Source of the DNA: Candidatus Doudnabacteria bacterium RIFCSPHIGHO2_02_FULL_42_25
GTDB taxonomy: Bacteria; Patescibacteriota; Doudnabacteria; UBA920; O2-02-FULL-48-8
Direction of reading: 5' to 3'
DNA: 64,000 bases
Assembly: GCA_001777665.1 (NCBI GenBank)
Contig: MFEQ01000004.1
Coordinates: 64,679 to 128,678 of the forward strand
The notes beneath the pieces were generated by a model. That model was given only the letters and a program-made list of their open reading frames with translations, made no database searches and was not told where the DNA came from. Position numbers and translations under genes: made by a program. Within the stretch, counting starts at the first letter, position 1. Each line of letters starts with the position of its first letter. This document shows, piece after piece, positions 1,367-64,000 of the stretch.

Positions 1367-1380
1367 GTACAGGTATTTTA

Positions 1381-2199
1381 TCAGTTTTTAGCTACTTTCC
1401 GCAAGATGAAAAAGCCACTGATAACAACCAAACAAAAAGCGATGATTTGGTCTACGCGAAAGTTGCCGACAAAGAAACTGTCTTCACGAATCCCCTCGAT
1501 GAAGAATCTGCCCAATGAATATAGAAAAAGGTAAGATAATCCGATAATTCCACTTTTAACTTTTCCTAAAAGCTTAAACAAAATCAAAAATATCGCTATG
1601 TCTAAAATGGCTTCGTATAAAAAAGCTGGATGATGGTATTGTCGATCTGCAGCGATGTACATTTTCCAAGGCAAATCTGTGACTAAGCCATAGGCTTCTT
1701 GGTTGACGAAATTCCCAAACCGACCGATTGCTTGTCCTAATGGCAAACTCAAAGCGATCAAATCAAACAAATGGAAAAAAGTATAAGCTTTTCGTCGGGC
1801 GTAAAAATATGTAAAAATTAAACAAGATAAAATCGCACCATAAATGGCCAGACCTCCGTGCCATATTTGATAAATCTCTGAAGGATTTTTCGAATAAAAA
1901 TCCCAGTTAAAAATGACTGTATAGACACGGGCTCCGAGTACTCCAATAATTACTAGCCAAAATGCATATTCATCTAAATTTTCCTTGCTGACTCCAAACT
2001 TCCACGAATTTTTTCTCGCAACTAAGTATGCACTAAAAATCGCTCCAGCCAAAATCAAACCGTACCAACGGATTTCGAGATTGCCCAAACTGATCACCGG
2101 GTTAATTACTATCTCACCGGCAAACGCTGGGATGAAAAAGAAAAAAACTGCGAGAGCAGCTAGGACTATGCCGGTTAAAATTAAAATATATTTTTTCAT
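1381..2199 (-). CDS. lgt: prolipoprotein diacylglyceryl transferase
   Basis: Perfect Lgt signature GRFGNFVNQEAYG, multi-TM topology, 272 aa. Confidence 0.85.
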   Translation of the reverse strand: MKKYILILTGIVLAALAVFFFFIPAFAGEIVINPVISLGNLEIRWYGLILAGAIFSAYLVARKNSWKFGVSKENLDEYAFWLVIIGVLGARVYTVIFNWDFYSKNPSEIYQIWHGGLAIYGAILSCLIFTYFYARRKAYTFFHLFDLIALSLPLGQAIGRFGNFVNQEAYGLVTDLPWKMYIAADRQYHHPAFLYEAILDIAIFLILFKLLGKVKSGIIGLSYLFLYSLGRFFIEGIREDSFFVGNFRVDQIIAFCLVVISGFFILRKVAKN

Positions 2200-2793: not shown

Positions 2794-2860
2794 ACATTAA
2801 GCATTATATCACAACCTGCTGCAATTTGGTCAATGCCAACAATTATGGTAAAATAATCAA

Positions 2861-4298
2861 TATGAATCGCACGCTTATTAAAGATACAATCAACAAAACC
2901 GAGCAGGAAGTTTTAATTAAAGGCTGGGTCAACATCAGAAGAGATCATGGCAAATTGATTTTTTTGGATATCCGGGACCGATCTGGTTTGATTCAAGCCG
3001 TGATCAATCCTAAGGTTTCTGCTGAAGCGCATGCGGTTGCCTCTGAAATCCGCAACGAATATGTAGTCGAGCTGATCGGAAAAATCAATCCACGCGGCGA
3101 AAAACAAATAAATCTAGACCTCGAAACTGGAAAGATCGAAATCGAAGTTACAGGGCTAAAGATAATCAACGGTGCCAAGCCACTCCCCTTTGATATTACT
3201 TCAGACACGAGAACGGTTTCCGAAGAAATACGTCTAAAATACAGGTATTTGGATTTGAGAAATGAGCGAATGAAAAAAAATCTCAAGCTAAGACATAATG
3301 TCATCCAATTCATCAGAAATTATTTGATGGGACTTGATTTCACGGAAATCCAAACACCAATCCTTACTAAATCAACACCTGAAGGAGCAAGAGATTACCT
3401 AGTACCATCGAGGATTTATCCTGGTAATTTTTTTGCATTGCCTCAATCTCCACAACAATACAAACAGTTGTTAATGGTTGGTGGAATAGAACGATACTTT
3501 CAGATAGCTCCGTGTTTTCGTGATGAAGACGCCAGAGCCGATCGAAGTCCGGGAGAATTTTATCAACTCGATCTTGAAATGTCTTTTGTCGAACAGGAAG
3601 ATATTTTAGAGTTGACTGAAAAATTGTTTACCGATTTGGTAAAAACTCTTACTCCAGAAAAACATATAACTTTTTCTCCTTGGCCAAGAATTACCCACAA
3701 AGAAGCAAAAGCGAAATTCGGAAATGACAAACCAGATATGCGTAAAGATAAAAATGATCCGAATGAATTGGCTTTTTGTTGGGTTTTAGATTTTCCTCTT
3801 TTCACTGAACAAACCGAAGAAGATTTCTTTCACGGAGCAGGAGATAAATGGGGGCCTTCGCATCACATGTTTACTGCTCCCAAATCGGAAGATATTCCAT
3901 TACTAGATACAGATCCAGGAAAAGCTAGAGGGTTACAACACGATTTGGCTTTGAATGGTGTGGAAATTGGCGGAGGTAGCATCCGTATTCATGATCCAAA
4001 AATTCAGGAAAAGATTTTTGATTTGATTGGATTTACTAAAAAGCAGAAACAACGATTCAATCACATGCTAGAAGCTTTTGAATATGGCGTTCCCCCTCAT
4101 GGTGGCATAGCTCCAGGAATAGATCGATTAGTTAGAATTTTAGCAGGGGAAGAAAAAATTAGTGAGGTCATCGCTTTTCCTCTCTCTGGATCAGTTCGCG
4201 ACCCTATGATGGGTTCCCCTTCCGACGTGTCAGACAAACAACTCAAAGAATTACACATCAAAGTGGATTTACCAAAGGAGAAAAAAATAGATATTTAA
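2861..4298 (+). CDS. aspS: aspartyl-tRNA synthetase, short archaeal/eukaryal-type (likely non-discriminating)
   Basis: OB-fold N-terminal domain, class II motifs (QSPQQYKQLLMVGGIERYFQIAPCFRDED, GGGSIRIHD), about 479 aa without GAD insertion; start moved to ATG 2861 (track ORF starts at 2751 inside the convergent neighbour). Confidence 0.85.
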
Positions 4299-4300
4299 TT

Positions 4301-4424
4301 CCCCCTCTTAGAATAAGAGGGGGTTAGGGGGGAGTTAGATCTCAAGCGTTAAACAGCAGCTTAATCCTTAAAGGATATAACCCCTCCTAGCCTCCCCTTA
4401 ATATAAGGGGAGGAACAACAGCAT
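4301..4424. mobile_element. MITE-like palindromic element (family 1: CCCCTCTTAGAATAAGAGGGG ... CTCCCCTTAATATAAGGGGAG); miniature of the DUF559 element at 33796-34251
   Basis: Both hairpin ends match the inverted ends flanking the DUF559 ORF; same 120 bp unit present in reverse orientation at 55135-55252. Confidence 0.7.
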
Positions 4425-4442: not shown

Positions 4443-4511
4443 CCCATCTCGAACAGAGTGAGAGATCCCTCTTAAGAGCGATTTCTCGACTCGTTTCACT
4501 CGCTCGAAATG
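4443..4511. repeat. GC-rich hairpin repeat (family 2/3: CCCATCTCGAAC / GAGAGATCCCTC..GAGCGATTTCTC..CGAAATGG)
   Basis: Shares blocks with 56186-56240 and 62170-62193 and (reverse-complemented) 62604-62616. Confidence 0.6.
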
Positions 4512-12847: not shown

Positions 12848-12941
12848 ATTTCTTACATTATAGCAAGTTTTTATCTTATTTGCGTTTTATCAAATATGTA
12901 TTATATTAATGACGTAACCAATAAGTTGAAAGGACTAAGAA

Positions 12942-14015: not shown

Positions 14016-14570
14016 CTACAGCAGGATATGGCAGGCGTCGACTTTGACCGACGACTCCGTGATCTCCTTCACCAGGAACAGGCCGTACTTGCCGGATTCC
14101 GTTGTCACGGCAAGGATCGTTCCCGGCGTCAGCGTCACGATCTGGTCGTTTCTCGAGATCGCGACACGAGCAACGCGTGCCAGCGCTGACCCATCCTTGA
14201 GCTCGCGGAGCTGTTGGAAGGTTTGCTCGGAAATACCCGCCGACGAAATCCATGTCTGGTTGAGCGCCCCGGCGACGACGCGGTCGTCCAGCAACTGGAG
14301 AGAAAGCAGCGCCTTGGGCGAGCAGACGCGCACGCCGTTGCCGAACACGAACGTCAGGTCAATCTCGTTGGCGTTCTGCTCCGCATCGTTGATCGGCCGG
14401 CTCTTGTTAGCCTTGCATTTCATCAGGTAGCACAAGGGCCTTTCACCGGTGAACTCGGCGCTGTAACGGTAAAACACCCCTCGCTCCGACGGAATCACCG
14501 GCTCTGACACCGGATTGGATAGATCTTGCGTTGACTGGTCTCTTGGCTCGACTTGCACGATACACCCTCC
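14016..14570 (-). CDS. hypothetical protein encoded in a GC-rich island
   Basis: GTG start near 14568 with AAGGAGGGTG SD; local GC about 55-58% against AT-rich surroundings; no family recognised. Confidence 0.4.
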   Translation of the reverse strand, partial: GGCIVQVEPRDQSTQDLSNPVSEPVIPSERGVFYRYSAEFTGERPLCYLMKCKANKSRPINDAEQNANEIDLTFVFGNGVRVCSPKALLSLQLLDDRVVAGALNQTWISSAGISEQTFQQLRELKDGSALARVARVAISRNDQIVTLTPGTILAVTTESGKYGLFLVKEITESSVKVDACHILL

Positions 14571-14691
14571 TTTGGGCTTCGCTGATTTACTGCGGTTAAA
14601 CTGAAAACTAGGGACACACTGAAGTGCCCCTAGTTTACCAAGTATCGGTAGGGCTTGCAACTAGCATATTTTAAACAATTTCGAATCCTAT

Positions 14692-16608: not shown

Positions 16609-17193
16609 ATGTTTTTCGGAAACAGCGGTCAGATTATCAGCATGTCTCATCACCTAACGCTTCCAGCGCAGTTCCGCCCTCAAAGACGTGAAGTGTTCTT
16701 CTGGTGGAGAATGCGCGTTCTCCTCCTATGGGGGATCATTGCTTTGAGTCTCGCAGGAATCTGGTGGTTCGGCCTAACAGGGCTGGAACCTGCCTTCGTA
16801 TTCACTGCAGCTTTTATGTATTCGTTGATCGATTGGCGGATATCAAAAGTTGTGGTTCTTCAACAGGCTGATCATCGTCTGGAACGATATAACCGGATGC
16901 TGAAATTGCTGGGTAACTGGAGTCCCGCTGGCTATGTCGACGCGAGGCAGACTGTAGACTATCCGACTGATCCCTGCAAATCAGCTGAATCCCTACTTTA
17001 CGAACTTGCTGCTGTGCGTCGGAATCTGGAAAAGGAGTGGGTCCAAACACCGTACGAAGAAAGAACGGAAGCTCACGACCACAATCTCTGGAGGTCACGA
17101 GAACGACTCAAAGAAGCGTACGACCTATTCCTCGAGTTCGGGCTCATTAAACCGACCGGTTACCAGAAATACTTCGATAAACCAGCGGCTTAG
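16609..17193 (+). CDS. hypothetical membrane protein in a GC-rich island
   Basis: TAAGGAGGG SD, GC about 50%, two TM helices; no family recognised. Confidence 0.4.
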   Translation: MFFGNSGQIISMSHHLTLPAQFRPQRREVFFWWRMRVLLLWGIIALSLAGIWWFGLTGLEPAFVFTAAFMYSLIDWRISKVVVLQQADHRLERYNRMLKLLGNWSPAGYVDARQTVDYPTDPCKSAESLLYELAAVRRNLEKEWVQTPYEERTEAHDHNLWRSRERLKEAYDLFLEFGLIKPTGYQKYFDKPAA

Positions 17194-22975: not shown

Positions 22976-22995
22976 TCTTGTGATCGCGAGTTTCC

Positions 22996-23070
22996 TACGA
23001 AATACGAATTGGTACGAAACTACGAACTGGGCTTAATTCTTTCGTATTTTCGTAGATTTTCGTAGTTCGG
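22996..23070. promoter_or_regulatory. TACGAA/TTCGTA iteron palindrome (copy 1) in mraZ 5' region
   Basis: 4 direct TACGAA repeats then 3-4 inverted TTCGTA repeats; same architecture at 31445-31524, 35119-35190, 61170-61264, 63134-63245. Confidence 0.7.
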
Positions 23071-23104
23071 AGAGAAAACTCCATTAATAGCTACAGGAAC
23101 CGAG

Positions 23105-26553: not shown

Positions 26554-26835
26554 TTACGCCGTTTTTAGTTCAGGGTAAGCCCGAAGTCGGTCGCAGAGAG
26601 CCTGGAACTTATCCCGATCTACCGGAAGTTCCGGGTTCGGAGTGCCAACCGGCTCAACGTCGTTAACGACCCGACGGTACCAGGACAGGAAATCTCGAAT
26701 GATTGAGGTTTCCTTTGTATGACGGCTTGCGACGGGATAGGCCGTCATAAGCGCTTCACGGAGCGCGTAGCAATGCTTCAATGTCGGCTCCTCGATGTTG
26801 ACGACAAGCATTTCCTGCAATTCCTGTATGCTCAC
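26554..26835 (-). CDS. hypothetical small protein in a GC-rich island
   Basis: GTG start with GGGAGGAGGA SD; GC-rich; no family. Confidence 0.4.
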   Translation of the reverse strand: MSIQELQEMLVVNIEEPTLKHCYALREALMTAYPVASRHTKETSIIRDFLSWYRRVVNDVEPVGTPNPELPVDRDKFQALCDRLRAYPELKTA

Positions 26836-26890
26836 GAAAATCCTCCTCCCAGAGACGAGTTATTTTAACCTTTTATTAAAAACTGATCAA

Positions 26891-33130: not shown

Positions 33131-33197
33131 AAAACTATTATAACATAAAAACTGCGGTTTCCGCCGCAGCTTCTGTTTACTGTTAACTGATTACTGT

Positions 33198-33677: not shown

Positions 33678-33795
33678 GTACCTAATATTCTTTTTTATTT
33701 TTGTTTCTTTAGTAAGACTCTCACCTTACATACATAGTATAGCAAATTTTCCGGATTTTGTAAATAGGTATGAGTAATTTCGCCCGCAGTTTTTC

Positions 33796-34251
33796 CCCTC
33801 CTAGAATAGGAGGGGCTAGGGGTGGTAGAACCTAAGGCAACTCACGAGAAATTTTTTCAATTACACCTTCAATACTTTCCCGAACCTCATCATTCGTAAA
33901 ACGAAGAAGTCGAATTTGATTAGATTCTAAAAAAACTTCTCTTCTCTTGTCATATTCGTTTCCTTTTGGATCTAGAAAATGTGAATCACCATCTACTTCA
34001 ATTCCTAACCTTAATTCATTACAATAAAAATCCAAAATATAATTACCAATTCCATATTGTCGTCTAAATTTATAACCTTTAAGGTTCTTACCTCTTAGAT
34101 AATACCAAAGAATCTGCTCTGCTTGAGGCATATTGTTCCTTAGTTGCTGTCTTCTGCTTTTATATTCTTTTTTGTTGTATAAATAATCCATACTTTATTC
34201 TACCTCACATTCTACCCCACCTAACCTCCCCTATTCTAGGGGAGGAACAAC
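33796..34251. mobile_element. small palindrome-ended element carrying a DUF559 nuclease gene (ends CCCCTCCTAGAATAGGAGGGG / CCTCCCCTATTCTAGGGGAGG)
   Basis: Inverted hairpin ends flank the ORF; MITE-like ORF-less derivatives at 4301-4424 and 55135-55252. Confidence 0.65.
33832..34191 (-). CDS. DUF559 (Vsr-like PD-(D/E)XK) endonuclease-domain protein
   Basis: LW..LR...GYKFRRQYGIGNYILDFYCNELRLGIEVDGDSH hallmark of DUF559. Confidence 0.8.
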   Translation of the reverse strand: MDYLYNKKEYKSRRQQLRNNMPQAEQILWYYLRGKNLKGYKFRRQYGIGNYILDFYCNELRLGIEVDGDSHFLDPKGNEYDKRREVFLESNQIRLLRFTNDEVRESIEGVIEKISRELP

Positions 34252-34317
34252 TGCAAGCTTTCGCAAAGGCGATTTCCGGGATGGTTAAAAAACGTTAATT
34301 AATTTTTCTTCAAAAAA

Positions 34318-35061: not shown

Positions 35062-35118
35062 TTTACCAATTCACCCCCTCTCATCCCCTCCCACCCCCAT
35101 TCTCGACCTTTAAGATAT

Positions 35119-35190
35119 CTACGAACTACGAATTTTTACGAATATACGAACTGGGGTTAACCCTTTTCGTAAATTCGTGTTTGTTCGTAA
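35119..35190. promoter_or_regulatory. TACGAA/TTCGTA iteron palindrome (copy 3) with GGGTTAACCC core
   Basis: 58 nt upstream of 35061 start. Confidence 0.7.
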
Positions 35191-45408: not shown

Positions 45409-46248
45409 ATGACCATTCACCAACTTATAAATTTAGGAATCAAAAAACTCAACAAAACCTCCCCATCAGCAGCCCTCGATTCGGAGGTTCTTTTGTCTTA
45501 TGTGTTGAAAAAACCGAAAGAGTACCTAGTTGTCCATATGGGCAACTACGTCAGTCCGAAACAGGAAAAAAGATTTTTAACATTTATCAATCGCAGGTTA
45601 CTCGGCTGGCCCGTGGCTTATCTGACGAAGTCTAAAGAATTTTATAAACTCAATCTCTACGTCGACAAGCATGTGCTGATCCCCCGCCCCGAGACTGAAG
45701 GACTTGTAGAATTAGTCCTGAATTACCTAAAAGTACGATCGGACCAAATAGGTAAAATTAACATTTTAGATATTGGGACGGGCTCTGGAAATATTATCAT
45801 CTCCCTCGCTAAAAAACTCGGGACCAAGCACAATTACTTCGCCTCCGACATTTCACCAAAAGCTATCGCTGTGGCTAAGAAAAATGCTAAGCGCCAGAAA
45901 GTCAAAATCAAATTTGTGGATGGCAATTTACTCGAACCGTGGGGCAAACAGCATTTTGATTTAATCGTGGCCAATCTTCCCTACCTAGCAAAGCTCGTGG
46001 ATCCATCGACAAAGTTTGAACCGAGAGGCGCTTTGGTCGCTGCGAAAAAAGGGCTAAAACTCTATGAGGAATTATTCAAGCAAATCTACAACCTACAACC
46101 TAAATCCTACAACCTCTTTTTGGAAATCGGCCACGACCAGGCACCAGCAATAAAAAAACTGGCCAAAAAATTCTGGCCAGTTTCGAAAACGAAAATATAT
46201 AAGGATTTATTTGGACGACAGCGCTACGCGGTGATTACTCTTCTTTAG
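45409..46248 (+). CDS. prmC: release factor glutamine methyltransferase PrmC/HemK
   Basis: SAM motif LDIGTGSGNI, (N)LPY substrate motif, follows prfA. Confidence 0.75.
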   Translation: MTIHQLINLGIKKLNKTSPSAALDSEVLLSYVLKKPKEYLVVHMGNYVSPKQEKRFLTFINRRLLGWPVAYLTKSKEFYKLNLYVDKHVLIPRPETEGLVELVLNYLKVRSDQIGKINILDIGTGSGNIIISLAKKLGTKHNYFASDISPKAIAVAKKNAKRQKVKIKFVDGNLLEPWGKQHFDLIVANLPYLAKLVDPSTKFEPRGALVAAKKGLKLYEELFKQIYNLQPKSYNLFLEIGHDQAPAIKKLAKKFWPVSKTKIYKDLFGRQRYAVITLL

Positions 46249-49383: not shown

Positions 49384-49452
49384 CCCATCCCAGACGCCAC
49401 GAAGGGCGATCCGGGATCCACTTTATTGGACCCCGGATCAAGTCCGGGGTGG
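49384..49452. repeat. GC-rich hairpin repeat family 3 (ATCCCAGA..TCCGGGAT / ACCCCGGATCAAGTCCGGGGT)
   Basis: Two hairpins; the second is identical at 56330-56353. Confidence 0.7.
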
Positions 49453-49484
49453 TTTTTGCTCTCTGGCTTGGCTATAATGCAAAC

Positions 49485-54480: not shown

Positions 54481-54936
54481 TCAGCGCGGCTTGGTCGCGA
54501 TCAACTTCGCAGGATCATGCATGCGAGTGAACGTTCCAACGAACAGTTCAGAAAGCGGTTTCCCTCTATCTACTCGTTGCATTTCTTCTTCTAGTCTTTC
54601 GTAGCCCTCCTTCATGATTGCCTCGTGAGCTGCACTGTCCTCACCATTGTGACTCTGGGCTTTCTCGATCTCTCGTTTGATCTCAAAAACAAGCTCTTGT
54701 CTCCGCACATCCATTGTCTGAATAACACGACCACCGCCCAGCTTAACTTTCGCTAACGCTAGGTAGACGGCACGAATATGCTGACCCATTGGATCAGTAG
54801 ATCTCGGGTCAAAGCGCGGTACCTGGATCAGGCCCGATAACCCGTCACTCATTTCCTGCGACGCCAAGTACCAGCCGTTGCCCTCCGCTTGTTCATACGT
54901 TAACTTGATGATCTTACGGTCACTGCTGTTAACCAA
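54481..54936 (-). CDS. hypothetical protein in a GC-rich island
   Basis: TTG start with GAGGTGA SD; GC about 52%; no family. Confidence 0.4.
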   Translation of the reverse strand: MVNSSDRKIIKLTYEQAEGNGWYLASQEMSDGLSGLIQVPRFDPRSTDPMGQHIRAVYLALAKVKLGGGRVIQTMDVRRQELVFEIKREIEKAQSHNGEDSAAHEAIMKEGYERLEEEMQRVDRGKPLSELFVGTFTRMHDPAKLIATKPR

Positions 54937-55134: not shown

Positions 55135-55252
55135 CAGCAGTTGTTCCTCCCCTTAATATAAGGGGAGCTAGGAGGGGTTATCCTTAAGCGTTAAGCTGCT
55201 GTTTAACTCTTGGAATCAACTCCCCCTAACCCCCTCTTATTCTAAGAGGGGG
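55135..55252. mobile_element. MITE-like palindromic element (family 1), reverse-orientation copy of 4301-4424
   Basis: Near-identical block order in reverse complement. Confidence 0.7.
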
Positions 55253-55268
55253 AATTTACAGCAAACTT

Positions 55269-56201
55269 ATGTCTAACAAACTAATAGTAATTTTAGGCCC
55301 TACCACCTCGGGGAAATCATCACTCGCTATCAATCTCGCCCAAAAATTCAATGGCGAGATTATTTCTGCTGACTCCAGGCAAGTCTACAAAGGCATGGAT
55401 ATCGGCACTGGTAAAGTTACTAAAGCAGAACAAAAACTAATCAAACATTATCTTCTCGACGTCTCCTCCCCAAAAAAGCAATTCACTGTTTCGGATTTTA
55501 AGCGTCTTCTAATTTCAGCGATCGCTCAAATTAGAGGAAAAGACAAATTGCCTTTCTTAGTTGGTGGCTCGCCTTTTTATATTTATGCGGCCATAGATAA
55601 TCTACAAATTCCAGAAGTCACACCCAATCAAAAACTACGTAATCAACTACGTAGAAAAACTACTACCCAACTTTTTGCCATGCTTAAAAAACTTGACCCA
55701 GTTCGAGCAAAAAATATTGATAAAAATAATCCTCGGAGATTGATAAGAGCTATTGAAATAGTAAAAGCGACGGGAAAGCCGGTACCACCCCCACCTAACC
55801 TCCCCCTGGCAGGGGGAGGTGCCTTGATCATTGGGATCAAGAAGTCTCGTAAACAGCTCTACAAGCTTATCGATCAACGACTTGAGCAAAGACTCAATCA
55901 AGGAATGGTTAATGAAGTCAAAAAACTTCTGAAACAAAAAATCAGCCACAAACGGCTGCAAGAAATGGGATTAGAGTATCGCTTTATTTCTCTTTATCTG
56001 CAAGATCATCTCACCTATGAGCAAATGGTTGAACAATTGAAAAGCGCTATTCACAAATTCAGCAAACGCCAAATGACTTGGTTCCAAACCGACAAACGTA
56101 TCAAATGGATCTCTTCAGAAAAACAAGCAGAACGACTAATTAAGGACTATATAAAACCATCTCGACCCCGGACTACGATCCGGGGGAGAGATCCCTCCTG
56201 A
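55269..56201 (+). CDS. miaA: tRNA dimethylallyltransferase
   Basis: P-loop GPTTSGKSSLAINLA, DSRQVYKGMDIGT; carries two in-frame palindromic insertions (55789-55819 and 56166-56201). Confidence 0.85.
   Translation: MSNKLIVILGPTTSGKSSLAINLAQKFNGEIISADSRQVYKGMDIGTGKVTKAEQKLIKHYLLDVSSPKKQFTVSDFKRLLISAIAQIRGKDKLPFLVGGSPFYIYAAIDNLQIPEVTPNQKLRNQLRRKTTTQLFAMLKKLDPVRAKNIDKNNPRRLIRAIEIVKATGKPVPPPPNLPLAGGGALIIGIKKSRKQLYKLIDQRLEQRLNQGMVNEVKKLLKQKISHKRLQEMGLEYRFISLYLQDHLTYEQMVEQLKSAIHKFSKRQMTWFQTDKRIKWISSEKQAERLIKDYIKPSRPRTTIRGRDPS
55789..55819. repeat. family-1 hairpin CCCCACCTAACCTCCCCC-TGGCA-GGGGGAGG inserted in-frame in miaA
   Basis: Shares 17-mer CCCCACCTAACCTCCCC with element end 34215-34231; translated as PPPNLPLAGGGA. 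Confidence 0.7.
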
Positions 56202-56366
56202 GAGCGATTTCTCACTAATCGTTCGAAATGGGTAATCCCATCCCGGACGCTACAAGCGAAGCGCGGGCGATCCGGGATCCACTACACTAATTAATATCAA
56301 ATGATTCTTATTTGAAATGGACCCCGGATCGGCTTGATCGCCGGAGAGACGATCAAGTCCGGGGTG
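56166..56366. repeat. composite GC-rich hairpin repeat (family 2/3) overlapping the miaA 3' end
   Basis: CCCCGGA-CTACGA-TCCGGGG encodes the last miaA codons; GAGAGATCCCTC block; ATCCCGGA..TCCGGGAT; ACCCCGGATC..GATCAAGTCCGGGGT. Confidence 0.7.
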
Positions 56367-60565: not shown

Positions 60566-60591
60566 AATATTAGTAATTAATTATAACATAT

Positions 60592-61167
60592 ATGCTCATT
60601 TTTTGGATAGTTCTCGGTTTACTGGTACTTGGGTTTATAGGTATTTACAACAGTTTAATCCATTCCCGCAACAGAGTGGATGAAGCTTGGTCAGATATTG
60701 AAGTTCAGCTCAAACGTAGATATGACTTGATCCCGAACTTAGTCAATACGGTCAAAGGTTACGCACAGCATGAACAAGGGACTCTGACGAAAGTCACTGA
60801 AGCGAGAGCCAAAGCTACGGCTATTACCATGGATCCGACCAAGCTCAACGTGGAACAGATGGCCAAATTCCAAGCTGCGCAGGGTGAATTGTCTCAAGCG
60901 ATCGGCCGACTCTTTGCACTGTCCGAACAGTATCCAGATTTGAAAGCCAATCAAAATTTCATGCAGTTACAGTCTGATCTAACTGACACGGAAGATAAAA
61001 TTCAGGCATCCAGACGTTTCTACAATGGTAATGTCCGCGACTTCAATACTAAACTGCAAACATTCCCAACCAACTTGTTTGCTAGTATGCTTGGGTTTAC
61101 TGCCAGAGCCTTCTTCGATATCGATGAAAAAGGTGTGATCGGCCAAACTCCAAACGTTCAGTTCTAA
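60592..61167 (+). CDS. lemA: LemA-family protein
   Basis: N-terminal TM, LemA pattern. Confidence 0.8.
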   Translation: MLIFWIVLGLLVLGFIGIYNSLIHSRNRVDEAWSDIEVQLKRRYDLIPNLVNTVKGYAQHEQGTLTKVTEARAKATAITMDPTKLNVEQMAKFQAAQGELSQAIGRLFALSEQYPDLKANQNFMQLQSDLTDTEDKIQASRRFYNGNVRDFNTKLQTFPTNLFASMLGFTARAFFDIDEKGVIGQTPNVQF

Positions 61168-61169
61168 GC

Positions 61170-61264
61170 CTACGAAAGTACGAATTCTCGAATTACGAAC
61201 TGTTCGCCCGCCTGCCATGACGGCATGTCGGGCAGGTAGTTTCGCAATTTCGTATTTCGTAGAA
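61170..61264. promoter_or_regulatory. TACGAA/TTCGTA iteron palindrome (copy 4) with core CGCCCGCCTGCC..GGGCAGG, abutting htpX ATG
   Basis: Core is the reverse complement of the core in copy 5 (63151-63192). Confidence 0.7.
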
Positions 61265-61269
61265 ATACC

Positions 61270-62154
61270 ATGATCTACACCGAGATCTCGAAAAACAAAC
61301 GTAATACAGCATTGCTAATAACTTTTTTCCTAGTCCTCATAGTCGGGCTTGGATATGTCTTTTCGCTTTATGTGGATGAACCCCTACTGCTGCCAATTGC
61401 TGTCGGGTTCTCCATCCTTATGAGTTTCTTTAGCTATTATTTTTCTGACACAATAGTGCTCAAAATGTCGCATGCGAAAGAAATAAAACGAATTGATGAT
61501 CAAGAGCTTTATCGATCAGTTGAAAACTTAGCGATTACCGCAGGATTGCCCACGCCGAAAATTTACTTAATCGAAGATACCGCACCCAACGCATTTGCGA
61601 CAGGCCGAGACCCGAAACATGCAGTGGTCGCCATTACTACTGGGCTTCGCCAAAAGTTAACCAAGCAGGAACTGGATGGGGTCATGGCTCATGAGCTATC
61701 CCACATTGGCAACTATGACATCCGCCTCACCACAATTATTGTCGTCTTAGTTGGAGTCGTGACATTGCTGGCTGATTGGATGCTCCGGATATCATTTCAT
61801 GGTCGAAGACGAGAAGGTGGCGGTTTGATTATGCTCATCGGATTGGTCTTAGCACTTCTCTCACCTATTGCTGCCACGATTATCCAATTGGCTATTTCCA
61901 GAAAACGAGAATACCTGGCTGATGCTTCAGGAGCTCTACTCACTCGATATCCCAAAGGATTAGCGGATGCGCTTCGAAAAATATCCCATGATCATGAGCC
62001 TCTGGAAGTGGCCAACAAAGCGACAGCGCATCTCTACATCGTCAATCCACTCAAAGAACATTTAGACCAAAAAGATCGGATCGGTCGGTTTGCTTCACTC
62101 TTCCAGACCCATCCCCCACTCCAGGACCGCATCGAGCGTCTAGAAAAGATGTAA
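61270..62154 (+). CDS. htpX: M48 zinc metalloprotease HtpX
   Basis: HELSHIGNYD zinc-binding motif, 4 TM. Confidence 0.85.
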   Translation: MIYTEISKNKRNTALLITFFLVLIVGLGYVFSLYVDEPLLLPIAVGFSILMSFFSYYFSDTIVLKMSHAKEIKRIDDQELYRSVENLAITAGLPTPKIYLIEDTAPNAFATGRDPKHAVVAITTGLRQKLTKQELDGVMAHELSHIGNYDIRLTTIIVVLVGVVTLLADWMLRISFHGRRREGGGLIMLIGLVLALLSPIAATIIQLAISRKREYLADASGALLTRYPKGLADALRKISHDHEPLEVANKATAHLYIVNPLKEHLDQKDRIGRFASLFQTHPPLQDRIERLEKM

Positions 62155-62169
62155 CCATATTGACCTAAC

Positions 62170-62193
62170 CCATCCCGAACTTGATCCGGGATC
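62170..62193. repeat. family-3 hairpin CCCATCCCGAACTTGATCCGGGAT
   Basis: Left flank of GC-rich ppnP-like gene. Confidence 0.6.
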
Positions 62194-62233
62194 TTTTTCA
62201 TGCTAAAATCCTCCTACTGAATCAGGAGGAAAC

Positions 62234-62512
62234 GTGCTTACACATCGCATTCACGAAAACCGCAGAGGCTTAGGTAACGCCCAGAGTCTGTACTTCCAAG
62301 ACTCCTCGGATCGGTTCAGCGTCGGAATCGTTGCCCCAGGACGATACCCTTTCAAGAAGCAACCTGCTCAGAGCATAAAGGTCGTCCGCGGCGCGCTTGA
62401 AATCAACGGCATCAACTTCACACCTGAATCTGGTCCCTGCATTATTGAAGGGGGTCAGAACGCAACTGTAGTTGCGACTCAACCGTCGGCCTACATCTGC
62501 GAAGGCGACTAA
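62234..62512 (+). CDS. PpnP/YaiE-like (DUF1255) pyrimidine/purine nucleoside phosphorylase, GC-rich
   Basis: Alignable by eye to E. coli YaiE (YF..SVG..G.Y.F...GAL....EAG..F.VP...T.YLC); GTG start; SD AGGAGGA sits inside hairpin TCCTCCT-loop-AGGAGGA. Confidence 0.5.
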   Translation: MLTHRIHENRRGLGNAQSLYFQDSSDRFSVGIVAPGRYPFKKQPAQSIKVVRGALEINGINFTPESGPCIIEGGQNATVVATQPSAYICEGD

Positions 62513-62603
62513 TAATCGCCTGAACTTCAATTTACAGAGCCTGACTCGTTCGGCTCTTTCTTTTTTTAAAACATTAGCGAAAAATCACTTCTTAAGGCTC
62601 TGA

Positions 62604-62678
62604 AGAGGGATCTCTCCCCCGGATCGGAGTCCGGGGTCGAGATGGTTACCTATTTGGTCCGATCGTACAAATAGGTAA
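62604..62678. repeat. family-2/3 repeat (GAGGGATCTCTCCCCCGGATCGGAGTCCGGGG) plus hairpin TTACCTATTTG/CAAATAGGTAA
   Basis: Right flank of ppnP-like gene, abuts recX stop. Confidence 0.6.
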
Positions 62679-62679
62679 T

Positions 62680-63105
62680 TCAGCAAAAATCCTGAAGAAT
62701 TGTTCTGATCACATCATTTCGAAAACCCTTACTCGACAGTCGTTGGGCAATTTTTGGTTTCGGTAAATTTCCTGATTTGTTTAAAACCTTTTTGGCGAGT
62801 TCTAACTCGAGTTCAAAAGTTAAATTTGCTTTCAGTGCTGCTTCCGCTTCATTGCTTGCAATCCCCCGCTGCATTAACTTACTCTTAAGGCCATAGAAGC
62901 CATAAGTTTTATTTCTAAGTAATTCGTCCAAATAGAGTTGGACAAACCGATCATTGTCGATAAGGTTTTCTTCCTGTAATTTCTGAATTACACCCTCAAC
63001 TTCCTCACGACTAAAACCTCTCATCAACAGCTTTTTGGTTAATTCGCCTGAATGATGAGGCCTGATTTTCAACAGTTTTATGGCTTTATCGTAAACGCTT
63101 GACAT
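62680..63105 (-). CDS. recX: RecA regulator RecX
   Basis: Three-helix-repeat RecX pattern. Confidence 0.65.
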   Translation of the reverse strand: MSSVYDKAIKLLKIRPHHSGELTKKLLMRGFSREEVEGVIQKLQEENLIDNDRFVQLYLDELLRNKTYGFYGLKSKLMQRGIASNEAEAALKANLTFELELELAKKVLNKSGNLPKPKIAQRLSSKGFRNDVIRTILQDFC

Positions 63106-63133
63106 ATCTGCTATAATATTAGTATAGTACTGC

Positions 63134-63245
63134 CTACGAAAGTACGAAAGGATTACCTGCCCGACATGCCAGTCATGGCAGGCGGGCGAAAATACGAAAG
63201 GTTTTCACACATGTTCGTATTTCGAACAAATTCGTAGTTCGTAGA
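63134..63245. promoter_or_regulatory. TACGAA/TTCGTA iteron palindrome (copy 5) in the recX/clpC divergent region
   Basis: Inverted copy of 61170-61264 including the GC-rich core. Confidence 0.7.
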
Positions 63246-63284
63246 AGAATTTTAACCATTTGCTTTAGGCATCAAAATTCAAAT

Positions 63285-64000
63285 ATGAACCACTTTTCAT
63301 TCATTTTAGAACGATTATCGTCCAGAGCCAAGAACGCTTTGATCACTTCACAGCGAATTTCTGAAGATTTGCATCATGACCACATCGGCACGGAGCATTT
63401 ACTTTATGGAATCGTCGAAGAAAAAGCGTCTTTCGCTGCGGAAATTTTACTTAAAAACAAAGTCACTCCAGAAACCGTAAAGAATGAGATAATCCACATG
63501 AATCAAACTCATGTTTCTGATAAATGGCAGCCAAAATTGTCCAACAATCTTCGTGAAGTCATAGAGAAAGCTGCCATTATCGCTAGCCGCTATCAATACC
63601 AATTTATCGGCACGGAACATTTTCTCTACGGCATTACAGATATGGACAGCGATGAAGCCAAAGGTATGCTTCTAGGAATGAAAGTTTCTGTCACTGAACT
63701 TCGAAAAAATCTGCTCTCTATTTTTGAAAATGTTTCTCGCTTCCCTGACTTACTCAATGTCGATGAGCAGCCAGAACTCGCTATGCCTACAGAAAAAAAT
63801 TCCAAAACGCCGGCGCTCGATTATTTCACTACTGATCTTTCTAAAAAAGCACATAAAGGAAAAATCGATCCTGTGATCGGACGCAAAAGCGAAATCGAAC
63901 GGTTGATTTCCATTCTGAATCGACGCACAAAAAATAATCCGGTTTTGATTGGCGAACCAGGAGTCGGTAAAACTGCAATTGTAGAAGGTCTAGCCCTCGC
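63285..64000 (+). CDS. Clp ATPase (ClpC/ClpB-like), 5' partial
   Basis: Double Clp_N repeat then Walker [16 protein letters not shown]; continues beyond window. Confidence 0.85.

What the first reader, a model, noticed from the sequence alone, without database searches (positions are those of the whole stretch)
62160..62680. PpnP/YaiE-like nucleoside phosphorylase gene flanked by GC hairpin repeats, its SD locked in a hairpin
The 92-aa ORF aligns by eye to E. coli YaiE/PpnP (DUF1255). Its ribosome-binding site AGGAGGA is the 3' arm of a perfect hairpin TCCTCCT-ACTGAATC-AGGAGGA immediately before the GTG start, which could gate translation. The gene is GC-rich and is bracketed by family-3 hairpins (62170-62193 and 62604-62645) and a perfect 11-bp-stem hairpin abutting recX. 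Together this looks like a repeat-delimited cassette.
Basis: partly seen in the sequence, partly recalled or inferred. Interest (0 to 1): 0.55.

Follow-up and report, generated by a model that had tools for sequence, protein, structure and literature searches.

The report
Patchy PpnP-like accessory gene in Doudnabacteria
A real but very rare small gene of the PpnP (nucleoside phosphorylase) family sits, with its own promoter, ribosome-binding site and terminator, in a 525-bp slot between two convergent housekeeping genes of a Candidatus Doudnabacteria genome; the hairpin repeats around it are ordinary intergenic repeats of this genome, not the edges of a mobile cassette.

Summary
The 92-aa ORF (62234-62512) belongs to the PpnP/DUF1255 cupin family. 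It scores 26.9 bits against Pfam PF06865 (cut-off 25), and the AF2 model (pLDDT 92.6) has PpnP crystal structures as its best matches. It is under purifying selection (dN/dS about 0.18).

The gene is an accessory gene. Fourteen related Doudnabacteria lineages lack it, and in nine of them htpX and recX abut or overlap. One non-sister lineage (L025) carries a 60%-identical copy at the same site. Only three members of this subclade exist among 5.8 billion protein clusters.

The part conserved between the two loci is extended -10, SD, ORF and intrinsic terminator. The anti-SD arm and the flanking hairpins are not conserved. GC-rich hairpins occur in 18 of 39 intergenic regions of the window. The 'repeat-delimited cassette' is therefore not supported.

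The 'SD gate' is lineage-specific. The predicted start site (A62216) would leave the anti-SD arm out of the gene's own transcript.

Verdict: a new, divergent member of a known family at a variable gene junction. Interest is modest.

The parts
61270..62154 (+). htpX (M48 zinc metalloprotease), the upstream conserved neighbour; its stop codon is the left edge of the insert
   Evidence: Pfam PF01435 E 1e-33. 100% match to Ca. Doudnabacteria HtpX.
62155..62679 (.). 525-bp stretch between the htpX and recX stop codons. It is absent from the closest relatives, where the stop-to-stop gap is 0-2 bp.
   Evidence: Junction comparison with L029 and L030. No target-site duplication was seen.
62167..62193 (-). 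Short, degenerate copy of the CCCGGATC..GTCCGGG hairpin repeat family, in reverse orientation. On the + strand it forms a 6-bp stem followed by CTTTTTC, a weak terminator-like site after htpX.
   Evidence: 85% complementary to 49429-49455. Aligned by eye. Fold -7.7 kcal/mol.
62181..62209 (+). Promoter-like site TTGATC-17 nt-TAAAAT with TG (extended -10 TGCTAAAAT). The predicted start is A62216.
   Evidence: TGNTAWAAT occurs 19 times against 8.75 expected. An identical TTGATC-N17-TAAAAT lies upstream of another SD-led ORF at 26862-26890 (2 found, 0.17 expected). TTTTYATGCTAA is conserved in L025 although dS is about 1.9.
62209..62230 (+). Perfect 7-bp hairpin pairing TCCTCCT with the SD AGGAGGA (8-nt loop)
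   Evidence: -10.7 kcal/mol. The left arm is absent in L025 and L027.
62224..62230 (+). Shine-Dalgarno AGGAGGA, 3 nt before the GTG start
   Evidence: Conserved in all three subclade loci. Strong SDs are rare in this window.
62234..62512 (+). 92-aa PpnP/DUF1255-family single-domain cupin (P0001)
   Evidence: dN/dS 0.18 against L025.
62536..62567 (+). Intrinsic terminator of the ORF: stem AGAGCC..GGCTCT followed by TTCTTTTTTT
   Evidence: Fold -8.9 kcal/mol, z -2.5. The stem plus T-run is conserved in L025.
62597..62647 (+). 51-nt long-form copy of the same hairpin repeat family (outer stem ATCTC/GAGAT, inner stem CCCCGGA/TCCGGGG)
   Evidence: 94% complementary to 56155-56205 and related to 4450-4487. 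-21.5 kcal/mol.
62646..62693 (+). Second repeat: perfect 11-bp-stem hairpin (62646-62678) abutting and slightly overlapping the 3' end of recX
   Evidence: 85% complementary over 48 nt to 45708-45755, which lies inside prmC. z -4.4.
62680..63105 (-). recX, the convergent downstream conserved neighbour
   Evidence: Pfam RecX_HTH1/2/3. The C-terminus is identical in L029 and L030.

Best explanation
The 525 bp between convergent htpX and recX hold a self-contained accessory expression unit. It consists of an extended -10 promoter, a short leader with a strong SD, a GTG start, a 92-aa ORF and an intrinsic terminator. The ORF encodes a highly divergent member of the PpnP/DUF1255 cupin family. By homology only, this is a broad-specificity nucleoside phosphorylase that makes base plus ribose-1-phosphate, a plausible salvage function in a CPR bacterium. 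The unit occupies a variable junction of Doudnabacteria genomes and is patchily distributed. It is present in two non-sister lineages and absent from 14 others. This pattern arose either by lateral gain (within-clade recombination or repeated capture) or by ancient gain with at least 7 losses. The surrounding GC hairpins are members of small palindromic repeat families that have colonised most intergenic spacers of this genome. They are not part of the unit. The anti-SD arm is a lineage-specific addition. It lies at or just upstream of the predicted transcription start, so it could mask the SD only in read-through transcripts coming from htpX (inferred, not shown).
For: Family membership:
- Pfam PF06865 scores 26.9 bits against a cut-off of 25.
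- phmmer finds 2oyz at 6.8e-7 and V. cholerae PpnP 7eym at 7.9e-6.
- The AF2 model has pLDDT 92.6. The top seven Foldseek PDB hits are all PpnP/DUF1255 structures, with TM up to 0.86.

Real gene:
- dN/dS is 0.18 against the 60%-identical L025 copy.

Accessory status:
- The gene is absent from L011, L012, L014, L015, L016, L017, L029, L030, L031, L032, L033, L034, L035 and the P0055 contig. Synteny lemA-htpX-recX-clpC is kept in all of them.
- The window groups with L029 and L030 in 299 of 300 bootstraps. L025 groups with L031 and L032 in 300 of 300. The window and L025 are never sisters.
- A single-origin vertical model needs at least 7 losses.
- L033 has an unrelated 134-aa ORF at the same junction.

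Foreign-like character:
- GC is 53.4% against 41.5%, and GC3 z is +2.0.
- The gene has a strong SD in an SD-poor genome rich in leaderless-type starts.

Conserved unit:
- The -10 region, SD, start position and terminator are conserved with L025, although dS is saturated. The anti-SD arm and flanking hairpins are not conserved.

Repeats are generic:
- 18 of 39 intergenic regions hold a perfect GC-rich hairpin.
- The neighbouring spacers carry other repeat families.

Promoter:
- Searches support it. RNA starting at 62216 is unstructured (-2.5 kcal/mol, z +0.9).
Against: The Pfam score is only just above threshold, and the two closest relatives (P0002, P0003) fail Pfam at E<0.01. No enzymatic or active-site evidence exists. 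Two copies of one low-copy repeat family (about 5 copies in 64 kb) flank the gene in opposite orientation, which is not expected often by chance. A perfect 7-nt anti-SD within 8 nt of the SD has a chance probability of roughly 4e-4 per gene (own estimate), so it may be selected. The transcription start is predicted, not measured. The same site, conserved flanks and host-like divergence (60% against HtpX 77%) fit vertical descent. Parsimony (2 gains against at least 7 losses) and GC fit lateral gain. The origin is therefore unresolved.
Confidence: 0.7

Rival explanations
1. Repeat-delimited mobile cassette. The family hairpins at 62167-62193 and 62597-62647 act as terminal inverted repeats or recombination sites that moved the gene into this site.
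For: The two hairpins belong to one family, lie in opposite orientation and bracket the ORF. The family has a low copy number in the window. The whole 525 bp, repeats included, is absent from the closest relatives.
Against: L025/L026 carry the homologous gene at the same site with unrelated hairpins. No target-site duplication is visible. The other family copies (4450, 49429, 56155) are solitary and do not flank genes. Hairpin repeats occupy about half of all spacers and also sit in htpX|recX spacers that lack any gene, in L011, L014 and L032. No transposase, integrase, phage or plasmid link was found.
Confidence: 0.1
2. The TCCTCCT/AGGAGGA hairpin is a functional translational gate. It could be a constitutive damper, a sensor, or an insulator that blocks translation of htpX read-through transcripts while the gene's own promoter yields an open RBS.
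For: The stem is perfect, -10.7 kcal/mol, and 1 of 200 shuffles does as well. The gene also has a weak GTG start. The htpX terminator-like hairpin is weak (-7.7 kcal/mol), so read-through is plausible. RNA starting at the predicted start site is unstructured.
Against: The left arm is absent in L025 and L027, although the SD is conserved there. No Rfam family matches. CCTCC..GGAGG palindromes are a repeat theme of this genome, 5 found against 0.19 expected, and the others are not at start codons. The hairpin could therefore be repeat-derived. All 11 same-strain contigs are identical, so there is no population evidence.
Confidence: 0.2
3. The gene is ancestral to this Doudnabacteria group at this site and was lost independently many times. 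It is not a lateral acquisition.
For: The insertion site is the same and the promoter, SD and terminator are homologous in two deeply separated lineages. The 60% identity lies between HtpX (77%) and the RecX C-terminus (roughly 45%, by eye) for the same pair. dS is saturated. CPR genomes are streamlined and prone to gene loss (general knowledge).
Against: At least 7 independent clean losses are needed on the HtpX tree. The GC3 excess persists in both hosts (57% against 45%, and 62% against 48%). The translation signals are atypical for the host. The same junction has captured an unrelated gene in L033.
Confidence: 0.35
4. The ORF is spurious, or it is an unrelated cupin that only resembles PpnP.
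For: The Pfam score is marginal. The subclade relatives fail Pfam. Several family-consensus residues differ: E to Q at residue 46, and the C-terminal CxY to CEGD.
Against: dN/dS is 0.18. The model is confident and the best seven structural hits are all PpnP/DUF1255, ahead of other cupins. Full-length matches were found to about 25 proteins of about 90 aa, several of which score 42-48 bits on PF06865.
Confidence: 0.05

Closest known systems
PpnP / YaiE (Pfam PF06865, DUF1255/UPF0345), pyrimidine/purine nucleoside phosphorylase of E. coli and relatives (PDB 7eyj, 7eyl, 7eym, 7eyp, 2oyz)
   Same: It is a single-domain cupin of about 92-95 aa. Its profile hit is above the Pfam cut-off. The predicted fold superposes on PpnP structures at TM 0.76-0.86. 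The motifs SVG(I/V), PG.Y.F, VV.GAL and AY(I/L)C are shared.
   Different: Identity to solved PpnPs is only 22-28%. It belongs to a short-loop '..L.ING..' group and, within that, to a three-member subclade. The subclade has Q in place of the common E at position 46 and a CEGD C-terminus. Activity is untested. The host is a CPR bacterium and the gene is accessory.
REP/BIME/MITE-like small palindromic intergenic repeats of bacteria
   Same: These are short GC-rich hairpin-forming repeats in several families. They are dispersed mainly in intergenic DNA, often after convergent genes, and are absent from orthologous spacers of close relatives.
   Different: The families are specific to this genome or clade. 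No associated transposase was identified here. Some copies reach into coding sequence.
SD-sequestering 5'-UTR hairpins (translational attenuators, RNA thermometers such as ROSE/fourU)
   Same: The SD is fully base-paired in a local stem-loop directly before the start codon.
   Different: The stem is perfect, with no mismatches or U-rich pairing of the thermometer type. It is not conserved in homologous loci and is predicted to lie partly outside the gene's own transcript. No Rfam match was found.
Integron gene cassettes (ORF + attC)
   Same: A small ORF is followed by an imperfect palindrome.
   Different: The ORF has its own promoter and terminator. The palindrome has no R'/R'' core sites of the GTTRRRY type, read directly from the sequence at 62597-62647. 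The same palindrome occurs elsewhere without cassettes. No integrase is nearby.

Membership tests
PpnP / DUF1255 (PF06865) | Profile match above Pfam's gathering score over nearly the whole domain | tested here: met
   26.9 bits against a cut-off of 25; residues 14-89 aligned to profile 9-90/92. The margin is small. P0002 and P0003 do not reach E 0.01.
PpnP / DUF1255 (PF06865) | Single-domain cupin beta-barrel of about 94 aa, superposable on solved PpnP structures | tested here: met
   AF2 pLDDT 92.6, pTM 0.82, 10 strands. Foldseek ranks 1-7 are 7eyl, 2oyz, 7eym (two chains), 7eyj, 7eyp and 3hqx, with TMq 0.76-0.86.
PpnP / DUF1255 (PF06865) | Phosphorolysis of purine and pyrimidine nucleosides to base plus ribose-1-phosphate (activity described for E. 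coli PpnP, PMC8376909) | not testable with these tools
   There is only homology. Catalytic residues were not available to me, and some family-consensus residues differ.
Mobile cassette bounded by terminal repeats (MITE/composite element) | The same terminal repeats accompany the cargo in other genomes or sites | tested here: not met
   L025/L026 have unrelated hairpins on both sides.
Mobile cassette bounded by terminal repeats (MITE/composite element) | Target-site duplication or a defined empty site at the repeat ends | tested here: not met
   The empty sites L029 and L030 join the two stop codons directly. No duplication exists at 62155 or 62679.
Mobile cassette bounded by terminal repeats (MITE/composite element) | Related inverted repeats at both ends | tested here: met
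   62167-62193 (reverse) and 62597-62647 (forward) share the CCCGGATC..GT(C/T)CGGG..TGG(G)TT core. Both lie 13-33 nt inside the insert, not at its ends.
Regulatory SD-sequestering RNA element | SD paired in a stable local structure | tested here: met
   7/7 bp, -10.7 kcal/mol, z -2.9.
Regulatory SD-sequestering RNA element | Structure conserved (ideally with covariation) in homologous loci | tested here: not met
   The left arm is absent in L025 (5' region z -0.5) and in L027. Same-strain contigs are identical, so no covariation can be tested.
Regulatory SD-sequestering RNA element | Both arms present in the mRNA | tested here: inconclusive
   The predicted extended -10 ends at 62209, which places the start at about 62216, 3' of the left arm. 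There are no transcript data. Read-through from htpX would include the arm.
Integron cassette | attC site with R''/L''-L'/R' architecture and a nearby intI | tested here: not met
   No GTTRRRY core was seen on direct reading of 62597-62647. The repeat recurs at 56155 and 4450 without cassettes.

The most novel reading that the evidence does not exclude
The htpX|recX convergent junction is a dedicated capture site in Doudnabacteria. Self-contained, GC-rich, SD-led foreign gene units are inserted there, and possibly exchanged between lineages, with the help of the palindromic repeat families. The PpnP-like unit would have been captured twice and an unrelated ORF once. This would be a repeat-guided gene-capture mechanism not yet described for CPR bacteria. 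In this lineage the anti-SD arm would additionally make translation depend on the unit's own promoter.
Probability: 0.08. Interest if true: 0.6.

Novelty: new member of a known kind. Interest (0 to 1): 0.25.

Why it matters
The finding adds an extremely rare, divergent branch to the little-studied PpnP cupin family. Only three sequences of this branch exist among billions of protein clusters. It places that branch in a CPR bacterium, where nucleoside salvage is thought to be central (PMC5113843). It gives a clean example of a variable slot between conserved convergent genes in streamlined genomes. It also warns against reading flanking hairpins as cassette borders in repeat-rich genomes. The contrast between SD-led, GC-rich orphan genes and an otherwise SD-poor genome rich in leaderless-type starts may be a usable marker of recent acquisitions in such genomes.

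Tried and rejected
- **Rfam scan.** A permissive scan of 61000-63400 gave only chance snoRNA-type hits and no riboswitch or leader.
- **Carriers.** No homologue was found in 50,697 phage genomes or IMG/VR. The plasmid hits are Vibrio chromids with ordinary PpnP at about 32% identity.
- **Metagenome scan.** A scan for subclade relatives found only a near-identical contig. A profile search of 5.8e9 clusters returned only the three known members.
- **Giant protein hits.** The representative search also hit P0004, P0012, P0024 and P0029. These are Ig/fn3/WD40 repeat proteins whose weak beta-strand matches add up, so I rejected them as relatives.
- **Recombination tract.** The window's HtpX C-terminus (…RLEKM) first looked L025-like. 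The same ending occurs in its own sisters L029 and L030, so I rejected the idea.
- **L027 context.** The neighbours of P0003 (an AAA_28 protein and unannotated ORFs) gave no functional clue.
- **uORF.** A six-codon uORF (ATG 62200 to TGA 62220) spans the left arm and could unzip the hairpin. It is not conserved in L025 and has no start signals, so I did not pursue it.
- **D4 repeat similarity.** The SD hairpin resembles the D4 repeat copy at 33797 (CCTCCTAGAATAGGAGG). I noted this but could not show it to be homology.

Full report
**Source and setting.** The 92-aa product is identical to a hypothetical protein of Candidatus Doudnabacteria bacterium RIFCSPLOWO2_01_41_7, a CPR/Patescibacteria MAG. 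It was seen on 21 contigs. Local gene order is gatC(-), lemA, htpX, the ORF, recX(-), clpC. Eleven same-strain contigs are 100% identical over 62100-62720, so there is no population variation to exploit.

**Observation check.**
- The ORF is 62234-62512 with a GTG start.
- The SD hairpin pairs TCCTCCT (62209-62215) with AGGAGGA (62224-62230), 7/7 bp with an 8-nt loop. It folds at -10.7 kcal/mol, z -2.9.
- The left hairpin is at 62172-62192.
- The right hairpin is at 62610-62643, and a perfect 11-bp stem at 62646-62678 touches the recX stop codon.
- The two GC hairpins are members of one dispersed family. 62597-62647 is 94% complementary to 56155-56205 and related to 4450-4487. 62167-62193 is a short, degenerate, reverse-oriented copy resembling 49429-49455. 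The core occurs 3 times against 0.03 expected.
- The ORF has 53.4% GC against a 41.5% mean, z +2.4.

**What the protein is.**
- Pfam PF06865 (Ppnp) matches at 26.9 bits. This is just above the curated cut-off of 25, over almost the whole profile.
- phmmer against PDB sequences finds 2oyz (6.8e-7), V. cholerae PpnP 7eym (7.9e-6) and E. coli PpnP 7eyj (1.7e-3).
- An AF2 model built on 26 homologues is confident, with pLDDT 92.6 and pTM 0.82. Its seven best Foldseek matches in the PDB are all PpnP/DUF1255 structures (TM 0.76-0.86), ahead of other cupins.
- E. coli PpnP is described as a broad-specificity nucleoside phosphorylase yielding base plus ribose-1-phosphate (PMC8376909). CPR bacteria are thought to rely on nucleoside pathways (PMC5113843).
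- Activity of this protein is inferred only from homology.

**How rare the protein is.**
- An exhaustive HMMER search of 1.84 billion representatives gave only 33 hits at E<=1e-3.
- A few of those are spurious repeat proteins.
- The best hits are P0002 (60% identity) and P0003 (41%). The rest are about 90-aa proteins at 30-40% identity from scattered taxa.
- A profile search of 5.8 billion clusters returned only these three subclade members.
- Against P0002 the gene shows dN/dS 0.18 with dS about 1.9, so it is a real gene under selection.

**Is it a cassette?** As a presence/absence unit, yes.
- Fourteen other Doudnabacteria lineages keep lemA-htpX-recX-clpC but lack the gene.
- In nine of them htpX and recX overlap or abut, with stop-to-stop gaps of -29 to +2 bp. 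Two more (L031 and the P0055 contig) have spacers of only 28-29 bp. In three (L011, L014, L032) a spacer of 96-162 bp is filled with other hairpins. In L033 the slot holds an unrelated AT-rich 134-aa ORF.
- Compared with its closest relatives L029 and L030 (HtpX 85-86% identical), the window's insert is exactly 62155-62679. No target duplication is present.
- The only other carrier is L025/L026, which encodes P0002. It has the gene at the same junction.
- On an HtpX tree the window groups with L029 and L030 in 299 of 300 bootstraps. L025 groups with L031 and L032 in 300 of 300. The window and L025 are never sisters.
- A single vertical origin therefore requires at least 7 independent losses, against 2 gains.
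- For lateral gain: the GC3 excess holds in both hosts, and the translation signals are atypical for the host (below).
- For common descent: the site is the same, the regulatory flanks are homologous, and divergence is host-like at 60%, between HtpX (77%) and RecX.
- I leave the origin open and give the ancestral-with-recurrent-loss model about 35%. Lateral gain, by within-clade recombination or repeated capture, is the parsimony-favoured alternative.

**What travels with the gene.** The window was aligned with L025. The conserved parts are TTTTYATGCTAA (the extended -10 region), the SD AGGAGGAA, the start-codon position, the ORF, and the terminator stem AGCC..GGCT plus its T-run. This holds despite saturated synonymous divergence, which argues that the promoter and terminator are functional. 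The anti-SD arm is not conserved, and the L025 5' region is unstructured (z -0.5). Neither flanking hairpin is conserved either. L025 has an unrelated 19-bp-stem hairpin after htpX and other palindromes before recX. P0003 in L027 sits in a different context with TTGACA-17-TATAAT and AAGGAGGA, and it also has no anti-SD arm.

**The repeats.**
- Perfect GC-rich hairpins (stem of at least 7 bp) occur in 18 of 39 intergenic regions and almost nowhere else in the window.
- The adjoining spacers lemA|htpX and recX|clpC each carry a member of a different 'TACGAA' palindromic family, with the same embedded GC hairpin in opposite orientation.
- The closest relatives have none of these spacers.
- Hairpin repeats also sit in htpX|recX spacers that contain no gene.
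- Being bracketed by hairpins is thus the normal state of a gene in this genome.
The two flanking copies belong to the same low-copy family and are inverted. I cannot exclude that they played a role in this lineage, and I give that 10%.

**The SD hairpin.**
- A perfect anti-SD 8 nt upstream of the SD is unlikely by chance, about 4e-4 per gene by my estimate.
- This genome is enriched in CCTCC..GGAGG palindromes that are not at start codons, 5 found against 0.19 expected.
- The sequence TTGATC-17-TGCTAAAAT (62181-62209) is a good extended -10 promoter.
- TGNTAWAAT is enriched in the window, 19 found against 8.75 expected, and 0 of 100 shuffles reach that.
- The identical hexamer pair and spacing precede another SD-led, GTG-start ORF at 26862-26890, 2 found against 0.17 expected.
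- The usual 7-nt distance from the -10 puts the transcription start at A62216, immediately 3' of the left arm. RNA from 62216 is unstructured (-2.5 kcal/mol, z +0.9).
- The hairpin would then form only in transcripts reading through the weak htpX hairpin-plus-T-run. This is inference, and it needs 5' end mapping.

**Host context of translation signals.** Most genes in the window have no SD. Extended -10 boxes often lie 15-18 nt before start codons, which is the leaderless type. Strong AGGAGG-type SDs at true gene starts are limited to about five or six genes. Four of these are among the GC-richest ORFs of the window: the PpnP-like gene and three ORFs with no Pfam family. This is consistent with a class of acquired genes, but I did not test it further.

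**Verdict.** This is a genuine, rare and divergent PpnP-family accessory gene. It has its own expression signals and sits in a variable junction between convergent genes. The flanking repeats are generic and the SD hairpin is lineage-specific. It is a new member of a known kind, of modest interest.

Noticed in passing
window-wide; e.g. 1375-1383(-), 2803-2811(-), 12857-12865(-), 33137-33145(-), 60580-60588(-): Most genes lack a Shine-Dalgarno sequence. Extended -10 boxes (TGnTAWAAT, 19 found against 8.75 expected) often lie only 15-18 nt before start codons, which suggests widespread leaderless mRNAs in this Doudnabacteria genome.
   Followed up: partly
window 14016-14660(-), 16609-17193(+), 26554-26835(-), 54481-54936(-): These are the other GC-richest ORFs of the window (50-57% GC against 41.5%). 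None has a Pfam family. Three carry strong AGGAGG-type SDs, and two of those start with GTG. The ORF at 26554-26835 has exactly the same TTGATC-17-TAAAAT promoter hexamers as the PpnP-like gene. They may form a class of acquired genes.
   Followed up: partly
window 61169-61268 and 63131-63247: The lemA|htpX and recX|clpC spacers each hold a 'CTACGAAnTACGAA ... TTCGTAnTTCGTAG' palindromic element. Both contain the same embedded GC hairpin (CGCCCGCCTGCCATGAC(T)GGCATGTCGGGCAGGTA) in opposite orientation, so they bracket the htpX-ORF-recX block. Other family members lie at 22995-23073 and 35118-35166. The spacers are absent from the closest relatives.
   Followed up: partly
window 55789-55819, 56155-56205 (miaA) and 45708-45755 (prmC): Copies of intergenic hairpin repeats lie inside coding sequence. 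One encodes PPPNLPLAGGG within MiaA. One supplies the last 15 or so codons and the stop codon of MiaA. A 48-nt palindrome in PrmC, between its N-terminal and methyltransferase domains, is 85% complementary to the repeat abutting recX.
   Followed up: partly
window 4297-4422 and 55137-55256: A composite element of about 125 bp, made of several CCCCTC/GGGGAG-type hairpins, is present as an inverted pair 50 kb apart. Related copies lie at 33786-33837 and 34203-34254.
   Followed up: no
L033 2385-2789: A Doudnabacteria relative (HtpX 84% identical) has an unrelated AT-rich 134-aa ORF exactly between htpX and recX. The ORF has a hydrophobic N-terminus. Its start overlaps the htpX stop and its stop abuts the recX stop. 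The junction is therefore a recurrent site of gene gain.
   Followed up: partly
contig of P0123 (ENA ERZ27297570), gene table only: A truncated + strand ORF (47 aa, cut by the contig end) begins 101 nt after htpX, the same spacing as the PpnP-like gene in L025. It may be a third carrier. No DNA was retrievable.
   Followed up: no
L001 and L006 (same-strain assemblies): In two assemblies htpX is called as two ORFs (101 + 156 aa) and lemA as 211 aa, although the 62100-62720 region is identical. This points to assembly or strain frameshift differences upstream.
   Followed up: no
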